Assembly: GCA_000004985.1 (NCBI GenBank)
Contig: GG738848.1
Length of the DNA stretch: 64,000 nt
Reading direction: 5' to 3' (one strand)
DNA from: Naegleria gruberi
Taxonomy: Eukaryota
Shown piece by piece: positions 3,346 through 59,090 of this stretch (the stretch's first letter is position 1; the number at the start of each line of letters is the position of its first letter). Both the position numbers and the translations under genes were made by a program. The notes under the pieces are model-generated. The model had not been told where the DNA came from. It worked only from the letters and a program-made list of their open reading frames with translations, and did no database searches.

Positions 3346-5520
3346 ATGACAACATTTATTATTGCATTAATTTTATTTATTCTACTTTCTACTTGTTTAG
3401 TTTTATATTTGTGGTTTAGACCAGATGAAGATGATGATCATTATATTCCTAATACCAGAAGAACTACTAGAACCACAACTAAAACAAAATCATCAACAGG
3501 ATCATTAAAGTCTTCATCACCAATTAACTCCGATTCAATCATTAAACAAGAAGAAGAAAAACAACAATTAATTAATGATAACAATGATGATGATATTATG
3601 ATTGATGATTTTGTTTATATTAAAAATTCATTCAACAATGGAAAATATAATATTAATAATAGTAATAGTAATAATAATAATACAACAACAATAACAATAT
3701 TTAATAATAGTATTAATAATATTGTAAATTTTAAAAATAGTAAAATGGAAGATTCAAATTTAATATTAAAAAAATTACATTTACGTAATTTAAATAATAT
3801 TGAAAATATTAAATTTGAAACTGATAATATTCCATTAATAGAAACTTTTAAAAATATTGAAAAGTCAACTGGTGATGAAATTAAAAATAACAAATTATTA
3901 ATATTTGAAACTATTATTAGAGGTTATTTAATTAGAAATAGATTTAAAAATATTAATTTATTACATTCCAAAATTAGAAATTATTTATGTAAAAAATATT
4001 TTAATTATAATTTAAATTTAATTAAAAATGTTCAAAGTAAATGTTTTACTAAACATGTTAAAAATAATTTTATAAATCAATTGGAAAATATTAAAAATAT
4101 TCAAAGTGCTTTAAATGGAAATTTAGAAAGAATTAAATTTAATGAAAAAATTGAAAAATCTAAAAATTTAATTTGCAAATTAAAATCAATTAATTTTAAA
4201 AATAATTTAAAAATTGATTTAAATAGAATTATCAACTTGCAATCTATAATTAAAACTTATTTACAAAATAAGAAAAAGAATAATTTAATTAAATCTATTG
4301 AAATGATTCAAAATTATATTAATTGTAACAAAATTAGAAATAATTCTAAAATGGAAATTATAAATATTGAAAATAATTTACCATTTATTATTTCTATATT
4401 TGAATCAAATCAAATTAGAAAAGATTTTAATAATCAAAAATATAAAATTAAAATAATTCAAAATTTATTAAAATCTTTCAAAAATAGAAATGAATTTAAA
4501 TTTAAAATTGAAAATATAAAAATAATTCAAGGATTAATTGAATCTGTCAAAAATAGAAATGAATTTAAACATGAAATTGAAAATACTTTAATTATTCAAT
4601 CAATTATTAGAACATTTTTAGCAAATTCACAAAAATTAGAATTAAATAATAATTTTAATAATTTGATTAAAAATATTAAAATAATTAAAGAATCAAATGA
4701 AATTAGAAATAATTTTAAAAATAATTTAATTAATGTTAAATTGATACAATATTTTTTAAAATCTAAAATTGAAAGAAACAATTTTAATCAAGATTTATTA
4801 AAAATTATAAATTTACAATCTTTAATTCGTAAACATTCCCAAATTAGGGAATATAACAAATCAATTCAAAAAATATTAACATTACAATCTAAAATTAGAA
4901 ACTTTGAATTTAAAAGAGATCATTTTGAAGAAATTGAAACATTTAAAATTCCAAATATGGAATTTGAATTAAATTTTTATTCCAATTATCCTAATATGGA
5001 AATTTACATATTTGCACTATCTAAAATTAAAAAACATTTCGATTGTGAAATTTCCTTAGAAAAAGGTCATAAATTAAAAGGATTTTCAGAAATTAAATTT
5101 AATGGAATTGAAAATGGATTAAAAATTAATTTAAATGAATTTAAATGTGATGAAATTTTTATTTGTACAAAATTTTATTGTAATTTAATGAAAATGAAAA
5201 TTGAAAATCAAGATTTTAAATATATTCCATTTAAGGAACTTTTAAAATTACATTCAAATCATGTTTATATTTATAAAAATGATGAAAATGAATGGAATAT
5301 GAAAATATTAAATTATAATACTAGTAAGAGATTTAATTTAACATCTATTCAATATTATAAACAATTTAAATTATTACAAAATAGTAATAATAATTTAATA
5401 GTTAATAATAGTACTAATACTACTAATACTACCAATGAAACAACATCAGAAGAAGCAACACCAGTAATTGAAAGTGATACTACTACCATCAATCAAGAAG
5501 AAAATACAAATGATGAATAA
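3346..5520 (+). CDS. membrane-anchored multi-IQ-motif (putative calmodulin-binding) protein, 724 aa
   Basis: It is a single long ORF. The N-terminus is a hydrophobic segment, FIIALILFILLSTCLVLYLWF. At least ten IQ-like motifs follow, such as IIRGYLIRNRF, IQNLLKSFKNRNEF, IQGLIESVKNRNEF, IQSIIRTFLANSQ and LQSLIRKHSQIREY. A near-identical direct repeat, aaaaatagaaatgaatttaaa, occurs at about 4483 and 4549. Confidence 0.55.
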   Translation: MTTFIIALILFILLSTCLVLYLWFRPDEDDDHYIPNTRRTTRTTTKTKSSTGSLKSSSPINSDSIIKQEEEKQQLINDNNDDDIMIDDFVYIKNSFNNGKYNINNSNSNNNNTTTITIFNNSINNIVNFKNSKMEDSNLILKKLHLRNLNNIENIKFETDNIPLIETFKNIEKSTGDEIKNNKLLIFETIIRGYLIRNRFKNINLLHSKIRNYLCKKYFNYNLNLIKNVQSKCFTKHVKNNFINQLENIKNIQSALNGNLERIKFNEKIEKSKNLICKLKSINFKNNLKIDLNRIINLQSIIKTYLQNKKKNNLIKSIEMIQNYINCNKIRNNSKMEIINIENNLPFIISIFESNQIRKDFNNQKYKIKIIQNLLKSFKNRNEFKFKIENIKIIQGLIESVKNRNEFKHEIENTLIIQSIIRTFLANSQKLELNNNFNNLIKNIKIIKESNEIRNNFKNNLINVKLIQYFLKSKIERNNFNQDLLKIINLQSLIRKHSQIREYNKSIQKILTLQSKIRNFEFKRDHFEEIETFKIPNMEFELNFYSNYPNMEIYIFALSKIKKHFDCEISLEKGHKLKGFSEIKFNGIENGLKINLNEFKCDEIFICTKFYCNLMKMKIENQDFKYIPFKELLKLHSNHVYIYKNDENEWNMKILNYNTSKRFNLTSIQYYKQFKLLQNSNNNLIVNNSTNTTNTTNETTSEEATPVIESDTTTINQEENTNDE

Positions 5521-25334: not shown

Positions 25335-27308
25335 TTATTCATTTCCCAAAATATGGGTTTTAAATTTCCATGAAAGATTTGGTTTAGTTTGATTGTGTGC
25401 AAACATTGGATAAATAGTGGATGTAATAATTTCCATTAATTGTTTGAATTGAATAGTATCAAGTGCATTCATGTAAAATGTGAATATTCTTTTTGGATTA
25501 TGATTATCTTTTGCTTTAAATTTAGATTCAATAAAAGAAAGAGTTTTCAAAACTTTCTGTGAAATTTGTACTTCCTTGTCGAGAAGATACCTTTGTGGAT
25601 TATTGTTAGGGTTAAGTTGACTCGAAGTATTGGTGAAAAAGTTATTTTGATCAGGAACTGGGTATTGATTAAAATCTGGAAACAAGTCAAAAAGTGATTT
25701 GTCATCGCTAATGGTTTCACTCAAAATATCAATCTTTGTGAAAATGAGGAAAATTGGTGAATATTTGAGTGGTCCATTACATTGTTCTTCAAATAAGTTA
25801 ATACTTTCTATCATCCTATTTGAAAAATCATCTTCATAACAAGTCTTTCTAAAGTCAATCAGTGAAGTGGTATATAAAACGCCTGTCAATCCAGCATAAA
25901 TATTATTATACTTCTTTCTTTCTGTTCTGGCACCACCAACATCATAAACTCTAAATGGCATACCTAGATAATCATAATCTAGACATGTAATACCTGTTGT
26001 TTTACAACGACAACCAATAATGTCTTCAACTGATGGCTCATATTCGCTCAGTTTCTTAAACATTCGTTTCACAGCGCTCGTATCACCATGATCCCTTAAA
26101 TAATAATCCATGCCATCTGTCATTGAGTCTGTTAACGCATAACGATTTAAAACCTTTCTAACATCTGTATCCTCCCACATGGAAACAACAAATTCCTTCT
26201 GTGGTAATTTAGAAATATCAAAAAGTGTATATCTAGATTGTAATGAAGTAACTCTAGAATCAAACTCTTTAAACTTTTCGTATAAAGTTTCATCTAACAT
26301 GAAACGATTTTCTCTCGTAACCTTAGTTGTACCATTCTTAATAGCATCAACTTCATTCAAATAAAGTGAAACTCCTAATGAAAAACTTTGTAGTAAATTG
26401 GTAATAATATACATTCTCATTCTCTCAATTTCAGACCTATTGAAACCTTCTTGAAAAACAAGTCTGAATTGTCTGAAAAGTGTAGTTTTACCAGAACCTA
26501 AAGTGCCTGAAAGCATTAGAGTATAAACAGAGGGTGATTCGTATTTGGATTTCTGAACTTTTTTAGTTTTGGCAACATGTTGTGCGTTGGACGACGTTGC
26601 CTTATTCATTTCCTTTCTATGGGATGGAGCATTGGAACTAAAATGGCCATTGGTTGTAACATTCATATTCTTGGATATATGATTCGAGAGATGATAAAGT
26701 TGATTGTTGGTATTGGCAGGAGATACGTCATGGATATCTATTGTTGTTGTTGTTGAACTAGAGGATTGTTGGTGATGATTCACTGCTGTTGACAATGTTG
26801 AAGGAGTTGTGGTGGGGGTGGTGGTGGATAAATTACTCATCATCATTGGAGTGGTTGTTGTGGTTGACAAATTACTTGTTACTGATGGAGATGGACTTGT
26901 GAGAGATGATGATGCAGTTGTTGTCTCATTGCTGTTAACAACTTCATCTCCACTCATGTACAAGGGTATTGGTTTATCGAATGGAACTGTAGAAAGTGGA
27001 ATGATTTGATTTTGTCCAATGGTTGACTTTAACTTTTTGTACAATTGTTGTGTAGCTGTTGTTTCAGAATCAGATTCATGTCCATTGTTTTCCTGTGTGG
27101 TTACAGTAGCTGTGGCTTGATTGGCCATTGGAATCATCATGTTTGGTTCTAATTTGTGTTGCTGCTGTTGACCAGGTGGAACATCTCCAAAGGCTTTCTT
27201 CTTTTTTAAATATCTATTCATCATTTCCTTCTTCATTCGTTCATGTTCATTACTTTCCCTGATAACACTTGTTATGGATGGAAAGAAGAATGAAAGTAGA
27301 CTTTCCAT
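25335..27308 (-). CDS. divergent G-alpha-like protein with long S/T-rich N-terminal extension, 657 aa
   Basis: It is a single ORF. The G-alpha core is recognisable: P-loop LSGTLGSGKTT, switch I RCKTTGI, switch II FRVYDVGGARTERKKY, and a helical-domain-like insert. The guanine-specificity motifs are degenerate: NKxD reads TKID and TCAT reads MNAL. The catalytic Gln of DVGGQ is replaced by Ala. Confidence 0.75.
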   Translation of the reverse strand: MESLLSFFFPSITSVIRESNEHERMKKEMMNRYLKKKKAFGDVPPGQQQQHKLEPNMMIPMANQATATVTTQENNGHESDSETTATQQLYKKLKSTIGQNQIIPLSTVPFDKPIPLYMSGDEVVNSNETTTASSSLTSPSPSVTSNLSTTTTTPMMMSNLSTTTPTTTPSTLSTAVNHHQQSSSSTTTTIDIHDVSPANTNNQLYHLSNHISKNMNVTTNGHFSSNAPSHRKEMNKATSSNAQHVAKTKKVQKSKYESPSVYTLMLSGTLGSGKTTLFRQFRLVFQEGFNRSEIERMRMYIITNLLQSFSLGVSLYLNEVDAIKNGTTKVTRENRFMLDETLYEKFKEFDSRVTSLQSRYTLFDISKLPQKEFVVSMWEDTDVRKVLNRYALTDSMTDGMDYYLRDHGDTSAVKRMFKKLSEYEPSVEDIIGCRCKTTGITCLDYDYLGMPFRVYDVGGARTERKKYNNIYAGLTGVLYTTSLIDFRKTCYEDDFSNRMIESINLFEEQCNGPLKYSPIFLIFTKIDILSETISDDKSLFDLFPDFNQYPVPDQNNFFTNTSSQLNPNNNPQRYLLDKEVQISQKVLKTLSFIESKFKAKDNHNPKRIFTFYMNALDTIQFKQLMEIITSTIYPMFAHNQTKPNLSWKFKTHILGNE

Positions 27309-35276: not shown

Positions 35277-35348
35277 TAGCAAATCTAGGTTTCGATCCTA
35301 GGACCTATGGGTTATGAGCCCATCGCGCTTCCGCTGCGCCAATTTGCT
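35277..35348 (-). tRNA. tRNAi-Met: initiator tRNA-Met (CAT anticodon), 72 nt
   Basis: The reverse complement is AGCAAATTGGCGCAGCGGAAGCGCGATGGGCTCATAACCCATAGGTCCTAGGATCGAAACCTAGATTTGCTA. It folds as a cloverleaf with a 7-bp acceptor stem, anticodon loop CTCATAA, the initiator-specific T-loop ATCGAAA, and three G-C pairs in the anticodon stem. Confidence 0.9.
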
Positions 35349-44694: not shown

Positions 44695-44823
44695 TTTTTG
44701 GTTACAATCATGTGAAGATATTTCGGGGTGTTACATTACAGTGCAATAAAGTAATAAGTTAACAGGCAATATTTACAACAGACCATTCATGAGGTTGTTA
44801 TTAGTTGAGTGATGATAATATTT

Positions 44824-47800
44824 TCAATCATGTTTTCTTTTATTGTTAAAGTTTGGCTCAAATAATTGCATTTGTTCGATTTTTTCTAAGATTGAACTAG
44901 CACTTAATCTTTGCTTTGGATTACAACAAATCATTTTCAAAAGTAAATATTGACAACTGGTGGCAAGATTAGTTCTATTTCCAATTATTGAATTGAAGAA
45001 AGCATTTTCATCCATTTGGTGTTTGATAAGCGTGTCCGATATCTGTTCCTTTCAATTTGAATAAAGAAGTATTGAAATCATTTGTTAATAATTGATAGAA
45101 TATACATCCTAAACTCCAAATATCACTCTGAGGATAAAACAATCCATCCAAAATACTTTCTGGAGATGAATATTGAATCGTCCCTTCGAATGCAGTCATT
45201 CCAACTCTTCCTTCATATCTTGAAGATCCCCAATCACCAACAACAATTGAAATAGTTTCAGATACGTTTCTGGTTTTCTTTACAAATATATTTCCCAGCT
45301 TCAAATCTCTATGGACCATTCCTTTTGAATGGAGAAACACTAATGCACTTGATATCTGTTTAGTTATTTGAAGGGCTGTTTCTAAGGTTAATTTCTTTGA
45401 ATTTTTATACAACCAACTTCTCAAATCTGATTCGTATAATGGCATTACTATACATATATTTTCCATCCTCAACAATTAACAATTGTATAAGCCAAAATTG
45501 GAACAATATGTGGATTTTCATATACATTCAACTCGCTCATAACAACAATTTCCTTTAGTTCAGTGCCATTATTATTTTCAAGCTCAATAATTTTGACAGC
45601 CACTGATTCCCTAGATTGAGATTCTGTATACCTGTAAACATTTCCATTTGATCCACTTCCCAACTTATTTTCTCTGATATATTCTTTATCCTTAATTTTG
45701 AATTGAGATAAAGAGTCTTTTATCACCATTCTTAGTGGAATTAAATCATCAGTATCATCATAATTGATGTTCAATCGGGTGGTAAGATCTTGCTTATATG
45801 TTTTTTCTTCTTTCTCCAATATCTCAAAGTCAAAAAACTAACTACACAACCTATTATAATGACTGAAATTAGAACAATGATGGAAACAATCACAATTGGA
45901 GTAACAATATCATTCCTTTGTACACAATCATCTCCTGAATATCCATCACTACAAGAACAAGTATTATTTGAAACACATTCTCCATTTTGGTTACAATTTG
46001 AAAGACTTTCACAACTAGGAGTCATACAATCTATTCCTTTCCAACCATCAAAACACTGACAGGTTGATAGAACACATGTACCGTGACCATTGCAAACATT
46101 TTCATTTGTGGAGACTATTCCTAGACATACAGTTTCTGAAATACTACACATTGGCCCCGTCCATCCATGTTGAACACTTACATTGGTCAAAATCAATACA
46201 TGAACCATGCTCTGAGCACACTTTCAATCCATCTCCTGCAATGCCAAAACAGTAAGGTATGTAACAGGTGTTGCCAGACCACCCCTCTTTGCATTGATAT
46301 TGATTTGGTCCAATACATTTTTGTGCACGAGATGAAGGAATATCACAGGATAATGCTGAACAATCCGTACTACCTTTCCATCCACTATGGCATTGACAAT
46401 TTCCAATATTTATACAATCACCACTGCAAACACTACTATCATTCGCTAAATACCCATAACAACGAGGAATGCTACAAACTTCACCAAACCATTCATCCAT
46501 GCATTGATATTGATTTGGACCTGAACATGTAGAATGATTAGGAATTGGACTATCACAAGAATATTTGGAGCAATCAATACTACCTTTCCAACCACTACTA
46601 CATTGACATGAATCTATTGTGCTACATTTTCCATGTCCGTCACAAACATCAGAATTTGTTGAGGGTATTCCATGGCAGGTTGAAAGAGTTCCAACCCAAC
46701 CTCCCAAACATTGAAATTGATTAGGACCAATACAGATGGATTCATGAGAAGAGGGAGTGTCACATGAAAATTGTGAACAGTCCTTATTACCTTTCCATCC
46801 TGAATTGCATTGGCATGTGTCCACATCAACACATTGACCATGTCCTCCACATACTGAAACATTTGTTGGCAATTTCGAAAAACAGGTTGCAATTTCACAC
46901 AAGTTTCCACCCTGTTTGACATTCATATTGGTTTGGTCCAATACATTTAGATGCATGGTTGGATGGTGAATCGCATGAAAATTGAGAACAATCCTTATTT
47001 CCCTTCCAACCTGAATTACATTGGCATGTGTCTACATCAATACATTTACCATGACCTCCACAAACAGTATTATCTAAGGAAGATAACCCAAAGCAAGTTG
47101 TTGTTCCAACTATTGTTGACATTCTAAATGTGTTGGAGATTCTTCTAATAACATTATTATCTGAAATATCTGGATAACTAACAATCTTGTTTGGATGAAC
47201 AGCGCAACCCTTTGGATGATCGAATTGAGCTGAACCAGCATCACCATTCACTTTAAGAATAAGAATAATACATTTAACATGTTGACATAAATGAAAACTT
47301 ATTCCCATCATAAAAACCTTCATAACCATTTCCTGCCCTAGTTATTACAGTGCTGTAGTCTCCTCTCATTTCTCTAATTTTGTTATTGTTTGTGTCAACA
47401 ATTATCAAGGCTTTTACCGAGTCAACACAAATTGCAGAAGGTTCATAAAAAGAGGCAGATAAAGCAGGACCTTCGTCATTTCCCATCTTTGGAACTTCCA
47501 GCCAAGGTTGTTAACATACCATTTGATAGATCTAATTTTAATATTCTTTCTCTAGTTGGAAAAATAATAGAATTTCCAAAATTTGTGATTTGGGATGGTC
47601 TATTAAGGAATACTGAGAGTGCGTCAATAGGTGTCGAAAAAGGATAATATGTGCCATAGTTTCCATAGACCACCTTTACCTGTAGTGTTTTCACATTTAC
47701 AGAGAGTATTGATGAAGAACTTGACAAATATAGTTGACGATCTAATATTGAAATAGAGTTAACATAATTTTGATCATTGTAAAAAGTAAAAATTTGATCA

Positions 47801-48615
47801 TTTGCAACTACTTTGACCACATTATTTCCTTTATCCAAAATATACAATCTGGAATTGGAATAGAAAGCTTGGGTTGGATTAAAAAGCTTTGCTTTCGTTG
47901 GAATAATTAATTCTCCCCCACTACCACAAACACCTTTGAAAATAATTATTATATTAAATTCTAATTGTTTAAATTAATAAAACATACTTCCTGCTAAAAT
48001 CTTCAATGTTCCATCATTTTGCAATAATTTGATTTGACAATTTCCAGTGTCAGAAATTACTAGATTTCCTTCTGGTGATAATGAGACCCCATTTGGAGAT
48101 GATAATCCACTTGAAACAACAATTATTGCTTTTCCATTTGATATCTTAATAATATTTGAATTTCCACTGTCAGCAATATAAATATCTAAAGTATTGGGAT
48201 CGGCAAACATCCCTTTTGCACTGTTGATCCTTGCTCCTGAAACTCTCAAACTATTAATTAATCCATTGGACATGTCCACCACTCTTATCCTACTAGATGT
48301 TTCTTGCTTCCACAATAGCCATTTCCTGCAACAACCTTAATATCATTACTATCCATTCTCTTCACAGTACAAAACTCTGTATCCGTAGTATAATATTACA
48401 AAATCACCATCAGGGACAGCATGTATTGCATTAGAAAATATAGGGAAATCTAGGTAGCGAGTATTACCTATACTTCCAGCCACTGGAGTATGTAAGGATA
48501 GTACAGATGTTGTCTCAATACATTTGGACAGATGAGCCAAACTCAATAGAAATATCAACACACTGATCACAGTAATGATATTCATCTTATTCCTTCTCAA
48601 TGCCATTGATAACAC
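44824..48615 (-). pseudogene. receptor-like kinase gene (signal peptide - NHL repeats - tenascin-type EGF repeats - TM - Ser/Thr kinase) carrying at least six frame disruptions; probable pseudogene (or error-rich sequence)
   Basis: Successive minus-strand ORFs at 48349..48615, 47974..48315, 47476..47847, 47274..47486, 46895..47329, 46144..46956, 45771..46208, 45469..45819, 45008..45475 and 44824..45015 encode a continuous architecture but in changing frames. Two shifts fall inside EGF repeats, where the repeat pattern CxCxxGWxGxxC predicts the expected reading (CKCST/GWTGPMC at about 46160 and CQTGW/GNLCEIATC at about 46925). One shift falls in an A6 run at about 45810 between the TM and the kinase. 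Two more lie within the kinase catalytic domain, at about 45470 and 45010. No GT-AG intron explains any of them. Confidence 0.5.
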
Positions 48616-55575: not shown

Positions 55576-55602
55576 TTTTTAATAATTGGATTTTAAATTA
55601 AT

Positions 55603-56682: not shown

Positions 56683-59090
56683 ATGAGAACTTTGGACCAT
56701 CACAATCTTTGTAAACAAACATTTTCACTTAAACCCTGGAAAAAAATGCCTCCAAAGACCTCCTCAAAAACAACCTCTTCTGATGATGTTGATGAAAGCA
56801 GTGATGTAACCACAAAAAAGACGGTAACAAAATCGACCACCACCAAAACAACAAGTACTTTTGTTAATAAGCCTTTCAAGGTACCTCTAAAATCACCACC
56901 AAAGACTGCAACTTCATCTTCAGCAACAACAATATCTGCTGCTTCATCTTCTTCATCTTCTACAAAGAGTGCTGCTAAAAGTAGTGTTACTGCAAAGGCT
57001 AAACCACTCTTTGAACAGTCCCAAATTTTAGCTCCGAGCGATCCATCTTTGGATGATTCTTTTACTTTTGATTCTCCATTGAAAAACAAGAAGAAGAATG
57101 TGGAAAAGGAAGATGATGAGGATAGTGATAATGATGTAAATGAAAAAAAGAGAAAATTGGAAAGCATTTCAAAAGCAAAGAAGGAAAGTGAAAAAGTAAA
57201 ACCCACTAAAAAATTGAAAGAATCATTGAGTACAGTTTCCGATGAAAAGAAACCCTTCTCTCACAAGGAAATTAAACCAAAATCATCAAACAAGACTTTT
57301 ATTATTGGTGTAAGTGGTGGAGACTTTGCTCAAAAATCAGAAGTTGTGAATATCATTGAAAAGGTAGGTTTGAGAATATATAACTCGTATAACGATCCTT
57401 TTCCTTCATTGAATTAGTTATCAAAAAATACAGAATACGAATATGTGGAAATTGGTAGTTCAAACTTTGAAAGTTATACTCATCTGGTTTGTCTTGATCC
57501 TAACCCAAAGAAAACCATCAAGTTAATTTATTCTATTGCTTTGAATGTTCCAATAATCAAATCATCTTGGTTATATGAGAGTGAAAAATGTAATTATTTT
57601 GTAAAGGAAAGTGATTTTTATTTCGCTCAATATATCAGATCAAGAAGTGAGGGAATTTTGAAAGGAAAAAGATGTTATATTTTAAGAGGAGAAGTGACAT
57701 TTCCATCACCAGAAATATGTGAAAGATTTATTGAACTAAGTGGAGGAGCTTGTGTGGAAGATATTACTCGAGCAAATATTATACTTTCAACAACAGGAGC
57801 AAAAGATTTTGATAATATCATTCCAAGACACACTTCCAGTATGCCCCTATTCCCAGTGGTAACTGTTCGTTGGTTAGTTGACTGTGTTGATAAACAACAA
57901 TATCAAGATCCAAATGAGTATAAGGTATGTGTTTTTAATAATATTTACATTGTGGATTTACAATTCGAAAGGATGATTACTTTTACAGTGAAGCTTGTGT
58001 TTTGAAAGAAAGAGTGCTTGCTGAAAAATCAGCTCGAAAGCATATTGGATGTTTGAGATTATTGACTGATATTACTTGTTCAGCTAATATTATCCCATTA
58101 TATGCAGACAAAAAAAGTATTGTACTGGGAAGAGCAGCTACAGATGTGGATTTCACTGTAGATACTGAAAACTCAAAGAAGAATCCTGTTATTTCTAGAA
58201 TGCACGCTAAAATTGTACAGTTCCAGCAAGAAAGTAACAGCCAAAGTAAGGAAACCATACTCAAGTGGAAGCTCATTGATTCTTCCTCGAATGGTACCTT
58301 TGTAAATAATGTTAAGGTTAAGGAAGCCGTTTTAGCTAATGGAGATATTATTTGTTTCGGTCATTCCAAGGCCTCAGTTAAAGTAGGAGAACAAATTCCA
58401 TTCGCAAATACCAAATGTAAATATGTGTTTGAGACTGAGGATATTGTTTCAAATGAAGAAGCCGAGAAGGAAAAGGAGAGATTAAGAAAAGAGAATGAAC
58501 TAATGAGATTGGAAATTAATGGTCTAAGAGATTACAAACAAAAATCAAGTATGGTAAACCATCAAAAAGAGAAGGAAATTATACGTCTGCAAGAATTACT
58601 TTCCAAAAATCAGAGAAAAGAAATTGTCGAATTTCCACTCTGTCACAAGCTTTATGTATTGGATACAAACGTTCTCGTTGAAAATATTTCAATCCTTGAG
58701 AATCTGTTAAAATCAGCCAATATTACATGCCTTATCCCATATACAGTTATGGTTGAGTTGGATAAATTAAAGACGAGAACAGGTTCAGTTGCCATTAAGG
58801 CAAGAGAAGCAACCAGATTCTTGGAGGAATGTTTCGAAAACAAGACTTATCCAAATTTGATGGGTCAACTTCCAAACCAACAACTGAAAGGTATTGAAGA
58901 TGGAGGTGTTTTTGTTTCATCTGCTGATGATAACATTATCAATTGTTGCCTCTATTTCAAAGATCACGTACTCAAACGAAAGGAAAAGAATCATGAATTA
59001 ATTCTTTTAACATTTGATAAGAATATGAGAGTTAAAGCAGGTCTCTTAAAGATTGTTTCTCCTTCAATTCTTCCATTCAACAATAATTGA
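56683..59090 (+). CDS. BRCT-BRCT-FHA-PIN multidomain protein, 3 exons
   Basis: Exons are 56683..57363 (there is an alternative ATG at 56746), 57418..57924 (or ..57917) and 57989..59090. Intron 1 is 57364..57417, GTAGGT...AATTAG, phase 0. The donor of intron 2 is ambiguous between GTATGT at 57925 and GTATAA at 57918; only the latter keeps frame with the acceptor at 57988. BRCT1 is FIIGVSGGDFAQ...THLVCLDPNPKKTIK...SSWL. BRCT2 is RCYILRGEV...ANIILSTTGAKDF...VRWLVDCV. The FHA domain is IVLGRAATDVDFTVD...ISRMHAKIVQ...LIDSSSNGTFVNNVKV...GDIICFG. The C-terminal PIN-like domain is LYVLDTNVLVEN...CLIPYTVMVELDKLK. Confidence 0.6.

What the first reader, a model, noticed from the sequence alone, without database searches (positions are those of the whole stretch)
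44824..48615. Receptor-like kinase gene (NHL + tenascin-EGF + TM + kinase) broken by many single-nucleotide frame changes
The domain order is clear and continuous on the minus strand, but at least six frame switches interrupt it. Two fall inside EGF repeats, where the repeat consensus reveals exactly one inserted T (CKCST|T|GWTGPMC) and an indel in a G-run. One falls in an A6 run just after the TM segment. Two lie inside the kinase catalytic core. I can place no GT-AG intron at any of them. Neighbouring genes, including a 9.3-kb ORF, are clean. This pattern points to a decaying paralogue of a lineage-expanded receptor-kinase family, or, less interestingly, to a locally error-prone assembly.
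Basis: seen in the sequence. Interest (0 to 1): 0.5.

Follow-up and report, generated by a model that had tools for sequence, protein, structure and literature searches.

The report
Dead receptor-kinase gene in Naegleria gruberi
This is a decayed, unprocessed pseudogene of a Naegleria gruberi membrane receptor kinase, broken by nine frame-shifting insertions and deletions; the same genome keeps at least two intact relatives, so the finding is real but ordinary.

Summary
The window is Naegleria gruberi: a neighbouring G-alpha ORF is 100% identical to the NCBI protein. On the minus strand, 48606-44824 encodes signal peptide, NHL repeats, teneurin-type EGF repeats, one TM helix and a full protein kinase domain. 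It is readable only by changing frame ten times.

One change is best explained by a 67-nt GT..AG intron, and a canonical 54-nt intron lies in frame. Nine are true lesions:
- six single extra bases;
- one missing A in an A6 run;
- a 5-nt deletion that removes the W-x-G of an EGF motif;
- a roughly 100-nt deletion of half an NHL blade.

The two multi-base deletions were called against two intact N. gruberi paralogues, XP_002670873.1 (1395 aa) and XP_002671107.1 (1349 aa), which have the same architecture.

The only public model here is a 103-aa kinase fragment, NAEGRDRAFT_62737. All nine lesions fall within 3.66 kb, against none in 39 kb of other ORF sequence (P about 2e-10).

Verdict: a genuine non-processed pseudogene. 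One oddity remains. There is no nonsense codon and the kinase profile score is undiminished, so some single-base indels could still be consensus errors. Reads were not available.

The parts
44824..48606 (-). Whole disrupted coding region of the receptor-kinase pseudogene (ATG 48606-48604, TGA 44826-44824). With nine repairs and two introns removed it reads as 1220 aa with no internal stop.
   Evidence: Pfam on the repaired product.
48520..48606 (-). Signal peptide MALRRNKMNIITVISVLIFLLSLAHLSKC.
   Evidence: Read from the sequence: a hydrophobic core after a basic N-terminus. No predictor was run.
47105..48483 (-). NHL-repeat (beta-propeller) ectodomain region, carrying three frame lesions and both introns.
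   Evidence: Pfam NHL; colinear with the NHL/TEN_NHL region of P0152 and P0312.
45924..47098 (-). Teneurin/tenascin-type EGF repeats, about seven units. The first four are units of about 210 nt.
   Evidence: Pfam EGF_TEN, EGF_Teneurin and EGF_2; unit alignment.
45825..45908 (-). Single transmembrane helix IVTPIVIVSIIVLISVIIIGCVVSFLTL followed by RYWRKKK (positive-inside), which gives type I topology.
   Evidence: Read from the sequence; aligns with the TM segment of both paralogues.
44878..45681 (-). Protein kinase domain. GSGSNG, VAVK, HRDLKLGN, DWG, SPE, DIWSLG and the subdomain XI Arg are all present. It is interrupted by three single-base insertions.
   Evidence: Pkinase 147.9 bits, profile positions 1-260 of 263; motif coordinates.
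47934..47987 (-). Intron 1: 54 nt, GTATGT...CAAAG, in frame. It contains the only apparent in-frame stop.
   Evidence: Same 5' splice-site type as seven introns of neighbouring genes. Its retention shows the copy is not a retro-copy.
47251..47317 (-). Candidate intron 2: 67 nt, GTTTTT...TTAAAG, accounting for the f1-to-f2 switch. An alternative 5' site at 47326 gives 76 nt.
   Evidence: Splicing gives AGNGYE|VNGDAGSAQFDHPKG, a canonical NHL linker that matches the paralogue spacing. The 5' site departs from the GTAWGT seen in the other window introns, so it is less certain.
48351..48351 (-). Lesion 1: one extra base, GGA[T]AGT. It creates an immediate TAG after codon 85.
   Evidence: The downstream f1 stretch SNDIKVVAGNGYCGS aligns with VVAGNGICS / VVAGTGEC in the paralogues.
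48300..48301 (-). Lesion 2: deletion junction, 3n+1 nt missing. Both paralogues have 24-36 more residues here, the first two strands of an NHL blade.
   Evidence: (paralogue residues 130-170 unmatched).
47481..47481 (-). Lesion 3: one extra base in GGGAAA. The join is SSKDG|NDEGPAL.
46906..46907 (-). Lesion 4: 5-nt deletion after TGG in EGF unit 1. The x-G of C-x-x-G-W-x-G-x-x-C is lost.
   Evidence: DNA alignment of the four units (unit 1 is 211 nt with a 5-nt gap). Both paralogues have GWYGDLC / GWTGLNC. The alternative, one extra G in the GGG run, is not fully excluded.
46167..46167 (-). Lesion 5: one extra base inside EGF unit 5, CKCST[T]GWTGPMC.
   Evidence: (unit 5 is 124 nt). The site is not at a 0-frame stop.
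45801..45806 (-). Lesion 6: A6 run just after the TM helix. One A is missing (minus-one shift). The exact position is not determinable within 45837-45774.
   Evidence: The juxtamembrane region is not conserved in the paralogues.
45471..45471 (-). Lesion 7: one extra base, TGT[T]GAG, in the kinase N-lobe between beta4 and beta5.
   Evidence: The two-frameshift model scores 147.9 bits against 139.2 for a 26-nt-intron alternative.
45449..45449 (-). Lesion 8: one extra base, TAT[A]GTA, 22 nt downstream of lesion 7. The enclosed EDGKYMY aligns with ENSLFIC / ENGGYIC.
   Evidence: The site is not at a 0-frame stop.
45010..45010 (-). Lesion 9: one extra base, GGA[T]GAA, in the kinase C-lobe.
46669..46701 (-). 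In-frame damage: GWVGTLST---CHG lacks a conserved EGF cysteine and three residues. A further 6-nt in-frame gap lies at 46402-46431 (VCSGDC).
   Evidence: Of 56 Cys shared by both paralogues, 43 are Cys in the repaired product.
45011..45319 (-). The only public gene model at the locus: XP_002682136.1 / NAEGRDRAFT_62737, 103 aa. It is a Met-to-stop piece of the C-lobe ORF and lacks the whole N-lobe.

Best explanation
The locus is a non-processed pseudogene of a Naegleria gruberi type I receptor-like protein kinase.

The ancestral protein had a signal peptide, an NHL beta-propeller ectodomain and a stalk of teneurin-type EGF repeats. These were followed by one TM helix and a cytosolic kinase with the family-specific DWG motif. 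By inference it worked like its two intact paralogues: ligand binding outside, phosphorylation inside.

On the assembled haplotype the gene is dead. The first lesion places a TAG after codon 85, so at most a signal peptide plus about 55 residues could be made. Eight further frame-shifting indels follow, including a 5-nt deletion and a deletion of about 100 nt. At least one in-frame deletion removes a conserved EGF cysteine. The gene kept its introns and its genomic position between the hexosaminidase and ribophorin II genes, so it decayed in place. The 103-aa 'kinase' in the public annotation is an ORF-finding artefact.

Shown: architecture, frame path, lesion positions, intact paralogues, and confinement of the lesions to this gene. 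Inferred: that every single-base indel is real, that the gene is not expressed as protein, and its former function.
For: - Organism and identity of the locus.
- Full-length domain set after repair.
- Frame path.
- Colinear three-frame tblastn hits of paralogue P0152.
- Two intact paralogues with identical architecture, 45% identical to each other and 37-40% to the repaired locus.
- Multi-base lesions that base-calling errors do not produce: a 5-nt deletion and 24-36 missing residues at 48301/48300.
- In-frame loss of a conserved Cys.
- Retained 54-nt GTATGT intron.
- Lesions confined to this gene: intact genes lie 130 nt downstream and about 660 nt upstream, with 0 lesions in 39.4 kb of other ORF sequence against 9 in 3.66 kb, P = 2e-10.
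- No second copy in the window.
Against: The damage is indel-only. There is no nonsense codon in 1220 codons. All kinase catalytic motifs are intact. The Pkinase score (147.9 bits) equals that of the intact paralogues (151.7 and 149.7). NHL and kinase segments keep a coding-frame log-likelihood within the range of intact neighbours (valid segments only).

With 10 substitutions per indel, the chance of seeing no nonsense codon is 0.002. It becomes unremarkable only at about 1-2 substitutions per indel. Seven of the nine lesions are single-base and could in principle be consensus errors. No reads, transcripts or second assembly of this strain could be reached.

The roughly 100-nt 'deletion' is inferred from paralogues that are only about 38% identical. 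It could instead be an old in-frame difference plus a 1-nt indel.
Confidence: 0.8

Rival explanations
1. The gene is intact and functional in the organism, and the frame breaks are consensus or assembly errors in a locally poor stretch of the draft assembly.
For: The pattern is indel-only, with no nonsense codon and an undiminished kinase profile score. Seven lesions are single-base, and some sit in short runs: GGGAAA, A6 and TT. From my own knowledge, the public N. gruberi assembly is a Sanger draft.
Against: Nine errors would have to fall in 3.66 kb that coincides exactly with one gene, while 39.4 kb of other ORF sequence, including genes 130 nt and about 660 nt away, has none (P = 2e-10). 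A 5-nt deletion, a loss of 24-36 residues relative to two paralogues and an in-frame Cys loss are not base-calling errors. The stretch spans several Sanger read lengths. About half of the single-base events are not in homopolymers.
Confidence: 0.12
2. Only the assembled haplotype is dead. N. gruberi NEG-M carries an intact allele of the same locus that the assembly did not retain, so the organism still has the function.
For: Nothing in the window speaks for it directly. From my own knowledge, the strain has been described as heterozygous. A young null allele would fit the lack of substitution-level decay.
Against: Nine independent indels on one allele imply long relaxed constraint, which is hard to reconcile with a selectively maintained second allele in a recombining population. 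No second near-identical protein exists in the 15-billion-protein collection: the P0147 cluster has one member.
Confidence: 0.1
3. The frame changes are bridged biologically, by programmed +1 ribosomal frameshifting at stop codons (Euplotes-like), by transcript editing, or by tiny non-canonical introns, and a full-length receptor is made.
For: Seven of the nine lesions need a +1 correction. Four of them (48351, 47481, 45471, 45010) can be placed exactly on the T of a 0-frame stop codon. A 26-nt GT..AG segment could bridge 45471 and 45449.
Against: Sites 46167 and 45449 are not at a 0-frame stop. There the downstream frame must begin before conserved GW / MPLYE residues. The codons before the putative shift sites differ (GGA, AAA, TGT, GGA), two sites need the opposite shift, and two are missing sequence rather than carrying extra. 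The 26-nt-intron model removes beta5 of the kinase and scores 8.7 bits lower. No other gene in the window needs such events.
Confidence: 0.02

Closest known systems
N. gruberi XP_002670873.1 (NAEGRDRAFT_74151, 1395 aa) and XP_002671107.1 (NAEGRDRAFT_81646, 1349 aa), uncharacterised 'predicted proteins'
   Same: Same order of signal peptide, NHL repeats, teneurin-type EGF repeats, single TM helix and C-terminal Pkinase. They share the DWG motif in place of DFG and the block MPLY..DLR.W...HSKGMVHRDLK. Identity to the repaired locus is 37-40% overall and 52-57% in the kinase C-lobe.
   Different: Both are uninterrupted ORF products. The locus has nine frame lesions, lacks half an NHL blade and about 95 residues of NHL region that both paralogues have, and carries two or more extra EGF units. 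It is the outgroup to the pair, so it is an old family member that died, not a recent duplicate.
Non-processed (in situ) pseudogenes of eukaryotic multigene families
   Same: Homology to functional paralogues, retained introns and genomic context, multiple disabling indels, and premature termination early in the reading frame.
   Different: The lesion spectrum is unusually one-sided: eleven indels and no nonsense codon, with no measurable loss of the kinase profile score.
Teneurins (source of the Pfam EGF_TEN, EGF_Teneurin and TEN_NHL models)
   Same: The EGF and NHL modules match the teneurin-derived profiles.
   Different: Teneurins are type II proteins with the order EGF then NHL then YD shell, and no kinase. 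Here the order is NHL, EGF, TM, kinase, with type I topology. This is shared module types only, not membership.
Single-pass receptor kinases of animals (RTKs), plants (RLK/Pelle) and Entamoeba (TMKs)
   Same: Same working logic: an extracellular ligand-binding domain, one TM helix and a cytosolic kinase.
   Different: No specific sequence relationship was found. The nearest non-Naegleria kinases are 41% identical or less. The ectodomain composition of NHL plus EGF differs.
Euplotes-type +1 programmed ribosomal frameshifting at stop codons
   Same: Several +1 sites can be drawn at a stop codon.
   Different: There is no common slippery codon, two sites are not at stops, and other sites need minus-one or multi-base corrections. 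Tested and rejected.

Membership tests
Non-processed pseudogene | Clear homology to a functional gene or family | tested here: met
   Two intact N. gruberi paralogues align end to end. Pfam domains are full-length after repair.
Non-processed pseudogene | Disabling lesions (frameshifts, premature stops) in the coding sequence | tested here: met
   Nine frame-shifting lesions. The first gives a TAG after codon 85.
Non-processed pseudogene | Introns and genomic context retained (not a retro-copy) | tested here: met
   A 54-nt GTATGT..AG intron at 47987-47934, and no poly-A tract. The locus sits between intact hexosaminidase and ribophorin II genes.
Non-processed pseudogene | Lesions are present in the organism's DNA, not only in the consensus | not testable with these tools
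   No reads or second assembly could be reached. Indirect support comes from the multi-base deletions and the confinement of lesions to one gene.
Non-processed pseudogene | No full-length transcript or protein | not testable with these tools
   No expression data were available. A de novo N. gruberi transcriptome is cited in preprint 10.64898/2026.08.18.745565.
Naegleria NHL-EGF-TM-kinase receptor family (NAEGRDRAFT_74151 / 81646) | Domain order: signal peptide, NHL, teneurin-type EGF, TM, Pkinase | tested here: met
   (for the repaired translation).
Naegleria NHL-EGF-TM-kinase receptor family (NAEGRDRAFT_74151 / 81646) | Family-specific kinase signature (VGDWGSSR, MPLY..DLR.W, HSKGMVHRDLK) | tested here: met
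   Three-way alignment.
Naegleria NHL-EGF-TM-kinase receptor family (NAEGRDRAFT_74151 / 81646) | Uninterrupted ORF (functional member) | tested here: not met
Programmed +1 ribosomal frameshifting | All shifts at a common slippery motif or stop codon, all in the same direction | tested here: not met
   46167 and 45449 are not at stops. The preceding codons are heterogeneous, and two sites need the opposite sign.
Sequencing or assembly artefact | Errors independent of gene boundaries, of single-base type only | tested here: not met
   All nine fall in one gene (P = 2e-10). Two are multi-base, and there are in-frame deletions as well.
Teneurin | Type II topology with EGF upstream of NHL and a YD-repeat shell | tested here: not met
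   Type I topology, NHL upstream of EGF, no YD or Tox-GHH domains, and a kinase instead.

The most novel reading that the evidence does not exclude
If all eleven indels are real, this pseudogene records an almost purely indel-driven decay: nine frame-shifting and two in-frame indels, no nonsense codon, and a kinase profile score equal to that of the living paralogues. That would mean one of two things. Either the neutral mutation spectrum of N. gruberi is strongly indel-biased, at roughly one indel per one or two substitutions or more. Or this locus was hit by a localised indel-generating process.
Probability: 0.12. Interest if true: 0.4.

Novelty: new member of a known kind. Interest (0 to 1): 0.15.

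Why it matters
The practical value is mostly as an annotation correction. UniProt D2V1Y3 / XP_002682136.1, named a 'non-specific serine/threonine protein kinase' of 103 aa, is a fragment of a dead 1220-codon receptor-kinase gene. It should not be counted in the Naegleria kinome.

The finding also brings into view a small and so far uncharacterised family of NHL-EGF receptor kinases in Naegleria, with two intact members. These are candidate surface sensors in a free-living amoeba.

The indel-only decay pattern is a modest lead on the mutation spectrum of an AT-rich protist. It is worth a look only if reads confirm the indels.

Tried and rejected
- Exact-product look-ups for ORFs of the window, and for the 100%-identical G-alpha P0144, found nothing. 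The gene-position index does not hold N. gruberi.
- The first homology search with the whole repaired protein was swamped by bacterial NHL-repeat proteins and missed the paralogues. The second (EGF-TM-kinase) found only hits at 31-48% identity. The paralogues came from the exhaustive representative search with the kinase fragment and from cluster look-ups.
- Tandem Repeats Finder did not detect the EGF units. A manual MAFFT alignment did.
- A 45-nt GT..AG 'intron' (GTACTG...TTGCAG) would avoid lesions 1 and 2. It was rejected because the skipped f1 stretch DIKVVAGNGYCGS aligns with VVAGNGICS / VVAGTGEC in both paralogues.
- A 26-nt GT..AG 'intron' bridging 45471 and 45449 was rejected. It scores 139.2 against 147.9 bits and removes the segment that aligns with ENSLFIC.
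- Stop-codon +1 frameshifting was rejected (see the rival explanations).
- A relative-rate test on the kinase was uninformative, because the pseudogene is the outgroup to P0152 and P0214.
- In the codon-likelihood comparison, two segments were mis-registered. Only the correctly phased segments are used, and the Cys/Gly-rich EGF segments score low for compositional reasons.
- The metagenome scan for close relatives of the kinase gave only one 34%-identical contig.
- Literature searches found nothing on this family or on Naegleria pseudogenes.
Full report
**Source of the window.** The window is AT-rich, about 30-35% GC, and carries eukaryotic genes. These include CAP, spatacsin, a G-alpha, a UBA-type E1, ribophorin II, PreP peptidase, Rad9 and an MFS transporter. 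The G-alpha ORF at 25335-27308 (-) is 100% identical over all 657 residues to 'guanine nucleotide binding protein alpha subunit [Naegleria gruberi]' on a 712,659-bp contig. So this is the public N. gruberi assembly. From my own knowledge it is a JGI Sanger draft of strain NEG-M; I did not verify that here.

**Checking the observation.** A three-frame map of the minus strand shows long stop-free pieces that hand over to one another in the order f0, f1, f0, f0, f1, f2, f0, f1, f0, (f1), f2, f0 between 48606 and 44824. Joined, they give the following parts:
- a signal peptide;
- an NHL-repeat region;
- about seven teneurin/tenascin-type EGF units;
- one hydrophobic helix followed by RYWRKKK;
- a complete protein kinase domain.

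Pfam finds Pkinase over profile positions 1-259 of 263 (E 1e-43), plus EGF_TEN, EGF_Teneurin, EGF_2 and NHL. The number of frame transitions is ten, not six.

**Introns versus lesions.** Seven introns of neighbouring genes in the window are 40-70 nt long, begin GTAWGT or GTTAGT, and end AG. Within the locus, 47987-47934 is such an intron: 54 nt, GTATGT...CAAAG, in frame. It hides the only in-frame stop. The f1-to-f2 switch at about 47.3 kb fits a second intron, 47317-47251 (67 nt, GTTTTT...TTAAAG). Splicing there gives AGNGYE|VNGDAGSAQFDHPKG, a textbook NHL linker with paralogue-like spacing. Its 5' site is atypical, so I rate it probable rather than certain.

No intron can be placed at the other nine switches. 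At each of them, homologous coding sequence continues straight across the junction. Two tempting GT..AG segments were tested and rejected, one of 45 nt at 48.36 kb and one of 26 nt at 45.46 kb. In both cases the 'intronic' stretch aligns with paralogue protein sequence. For the 26-nt case the kinase profile score also drops from 147.9 to 139.2 bits.

**Finding intact relatives.** The word-indexed searches missed them. An exhaustive HMMER search with the uninterrupted kinase C-lobe piece returned two relevant proteins.
- P0147 is 103 aa and 100% identical to the query. It is XP_002682136.1 / NAEGRDRAFT_62737, on the same 712,659-bp contig. It is the only public gene model at this locus and is merely a Met-to-stop piece of ORF 45008-45475.
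- P0152 is 1395 aa and 57% identical in the fragment. It is XP_002670873.1 / NAEGRDRAFT_74151, on another scaffold.

A cluster look-up of an earlier hit added P0312, which is XP_002671107.1 / NAEGRDRAFT_81646 (1349 aa). Both intact proteins have the architecture NHL/TEN_NHL, EGF_TEN, TM and Pkinase and are 45% identical to each other. tblastn of P0152 against the window hits the locus colinearly in all three minus frames and nowhere else.

**The lesions.** A repair model built explicitly from window coordinates needs the following changes:
- removal of one base at each of 48351, 47481, 46167, 45471, 45449 and 45010;
- addition of one base in the A6 run at 45806-45801;
- addition of five bases at 46907/46906;
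- addition of at least one base at 48301/48300.

The result is 1220 codons with no internal stop. Three sites are more than single-base events.
- At 46907/46906, the DNA alignment of the four ~210-nt EGF units shows unit 1 (211 nt) with a 5-nt gap directly after an in-phase GGGTGG. Both paralogues read G-W-x-G-x-x-C there.
- At 48301/48300, both paralogues have 24-36 additional residues, the first two strands of an NHL blade, between VVAG.G.C and IR..DM.SG.
- In EGF unit 2, an in-frame 9-nt gap removes a conserved cysteine (GTLST---C against GNLCDIPIC). Unit 4 has a 6-nt in-frame gap.

Of 56 cysteines shared by the two paralogues, 43 are cysteine in the repaired product. Some of those differences will be alignment or lineage differences.

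**Why I read this as a real pseudogene.**
- All nine frame lesions lie in the 3.66-kb CDS, and none lies in 39.4 kb of other ORF sequence in the window. That other sequence includes the hexosaminidase gene, whose ATG is 130 nt from the locus's stop codon. P = 2e-10 under a uniform error process.
- The multi-base deletions and the in-frame losses are not the kind of error a base-caller makes.
- The affected stretch is several Sanger reads long.
- The retained intron and the conserved context show decay in place rather than a retro-copy.
- The first lesion creates a TAG after codon 85, so no receptor can be made from this sequence.

**What does not fit comfortably.** The damage is indel-only. 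There is no nonsense codon. Every kinase signature is intact: GSGSNG, VAVK, HRDLKLGN, DWG, SPE, DIWSLG and the subdomain XI Arg. The Pkinase score (147.9 bits) matches the living paralogues (151.7 and 149.7). In this CDS, 5.7% of random substitutions create stops. With eleven indels, seeing no nonsense codon has P = 0.54 at one substitution per indel, 0.04 at five and 0.002 at ten.

So one of three things holds. N. gruberi may have a markedly indel-rich neutral spectrum. The inactivation may be recent and unusually indel-heavy. Or some of the seven single-base indels may be consensus errors laid over a gene that is dead anyway because of the larger deletions. I could not resolve this. No reads, transcripts or second assembly of the strain are reachable with these tools.

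**Recoding was considered and rejected.** Seven lesions need a +1 correction, and four can be drawn exactly on the T of a 0-frame stop codon, which recalls Euplotes. However:
- sites 46167 and 45449 are demonstrably not at stops, because the downstream frame must start before the conserved GW and MPLYE;
- the preceding codons differ;
- two sites need the opposite sign;
- two sites lack sequence rather than carrying extra.

**Comparison with what is known.** The closest relatives are the two uncharacterised N. gruberi proteins above. A Logan-derived fragment (P0214, 55% identical) shows that the family exists in at least one other organism. The pseudogene is the outgroup to P0152 and P0214 and to P0152 and P0312. 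It is therefore an old family member that was maintained for a long time and then lost, not a fresh duplicate.

The module types match teneurin-derived Pfam models, but the order, topology and kinase rule out any teneurin membership. Functionally, the intact family works like single-pass receptor kinases in general. No specific relationship to animal, plant or Entamoeba receptor kinases was found (identity 41% or less).

**Verdict.** This is an ordinary in situ pseudogene and a mis-annotated 103-aa 'kinase'. There is a minor unexplained bias toward indels. Interest is low.

Noticed in passing
window 57931-57988 (+): The BRCT ORF (57445-58005) and the FHA+PIN ORF (58002-59090) overlap in different frames (f0 to f2). 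A 41-nt GTTTTT...GAAAG segment (57931-57971) would join them in frame. This is the same unusual GTTTTT 5' site as the candidate intron 2 of the pseudogene. It could be a short intron class or another frame break.
   Followed up: partly
P0152 (XP_002670873.1), P0312 (XP_002671107.1); window 44824-48606: N. gruberi has a small, uncharacterised family of type I receptor kinases. Their ectodomains combine NHL propeller repeats with teneurin-type EGF repeats (Pfam TEN_NHL and EGF_TEN), in the reverse order to teneurins. All members have DWG in place of DFG.
   Followed up: partly
window 47105-47146 (-) versus paralogue alignment: Between VIRRISN and TFRMSTIVG the locus lacks about 95 residues, roughly two NHL blades, that both intact paralogues have. 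It also has two or more extra EGF units. The gap is in frame, so it may be an old difference or a further large deletion.
   Followed up: no
P0121 (ENA contig of 2430 bp): A protein from an ENA assembly clusters at 90% identity or more with N. gruberi NAEGRDRAFT_81646. N. gruberi-like sequence is therefore present in at least one public non-NCBI assembly. No counterpart of the pseudogene locus turned up there.
   Followed up: no
window 25335-27308 (-): The G-alpha protein has an N-terminal extension of about 240 residues before the G-alpha domain (Pfam match 241-632). Its best solved relative is the Galpha7 entry 6ne6.
   Followed up: no
window 3346-5520 (+): A 724-aa ORF with extreme codon composition (GC3 0.07, GC1 0.21) and only a weak IQ-motif hit. 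It is far more AT-rich than any other ORF in the window.
   Followed up: no
window 35277-35348 (-): A single tRNA-Met (CAT) gene lies just downstream of the UBA/ThiF E1-like gene. It is the only Rfam hit in the window.
   Followed up: yes
window 44695-44823 and 55576-55602: Intergenic spacers are very short. Only 130 nt separate the pseudogene's stop from the hexosaminidase ATG, and about 27 nt separate the mitochondrial-carrier ORF's stop from the LRR ORF's ATG. Promoters and terminators must be very compact or overlap coding sequence.
   Followed up: no
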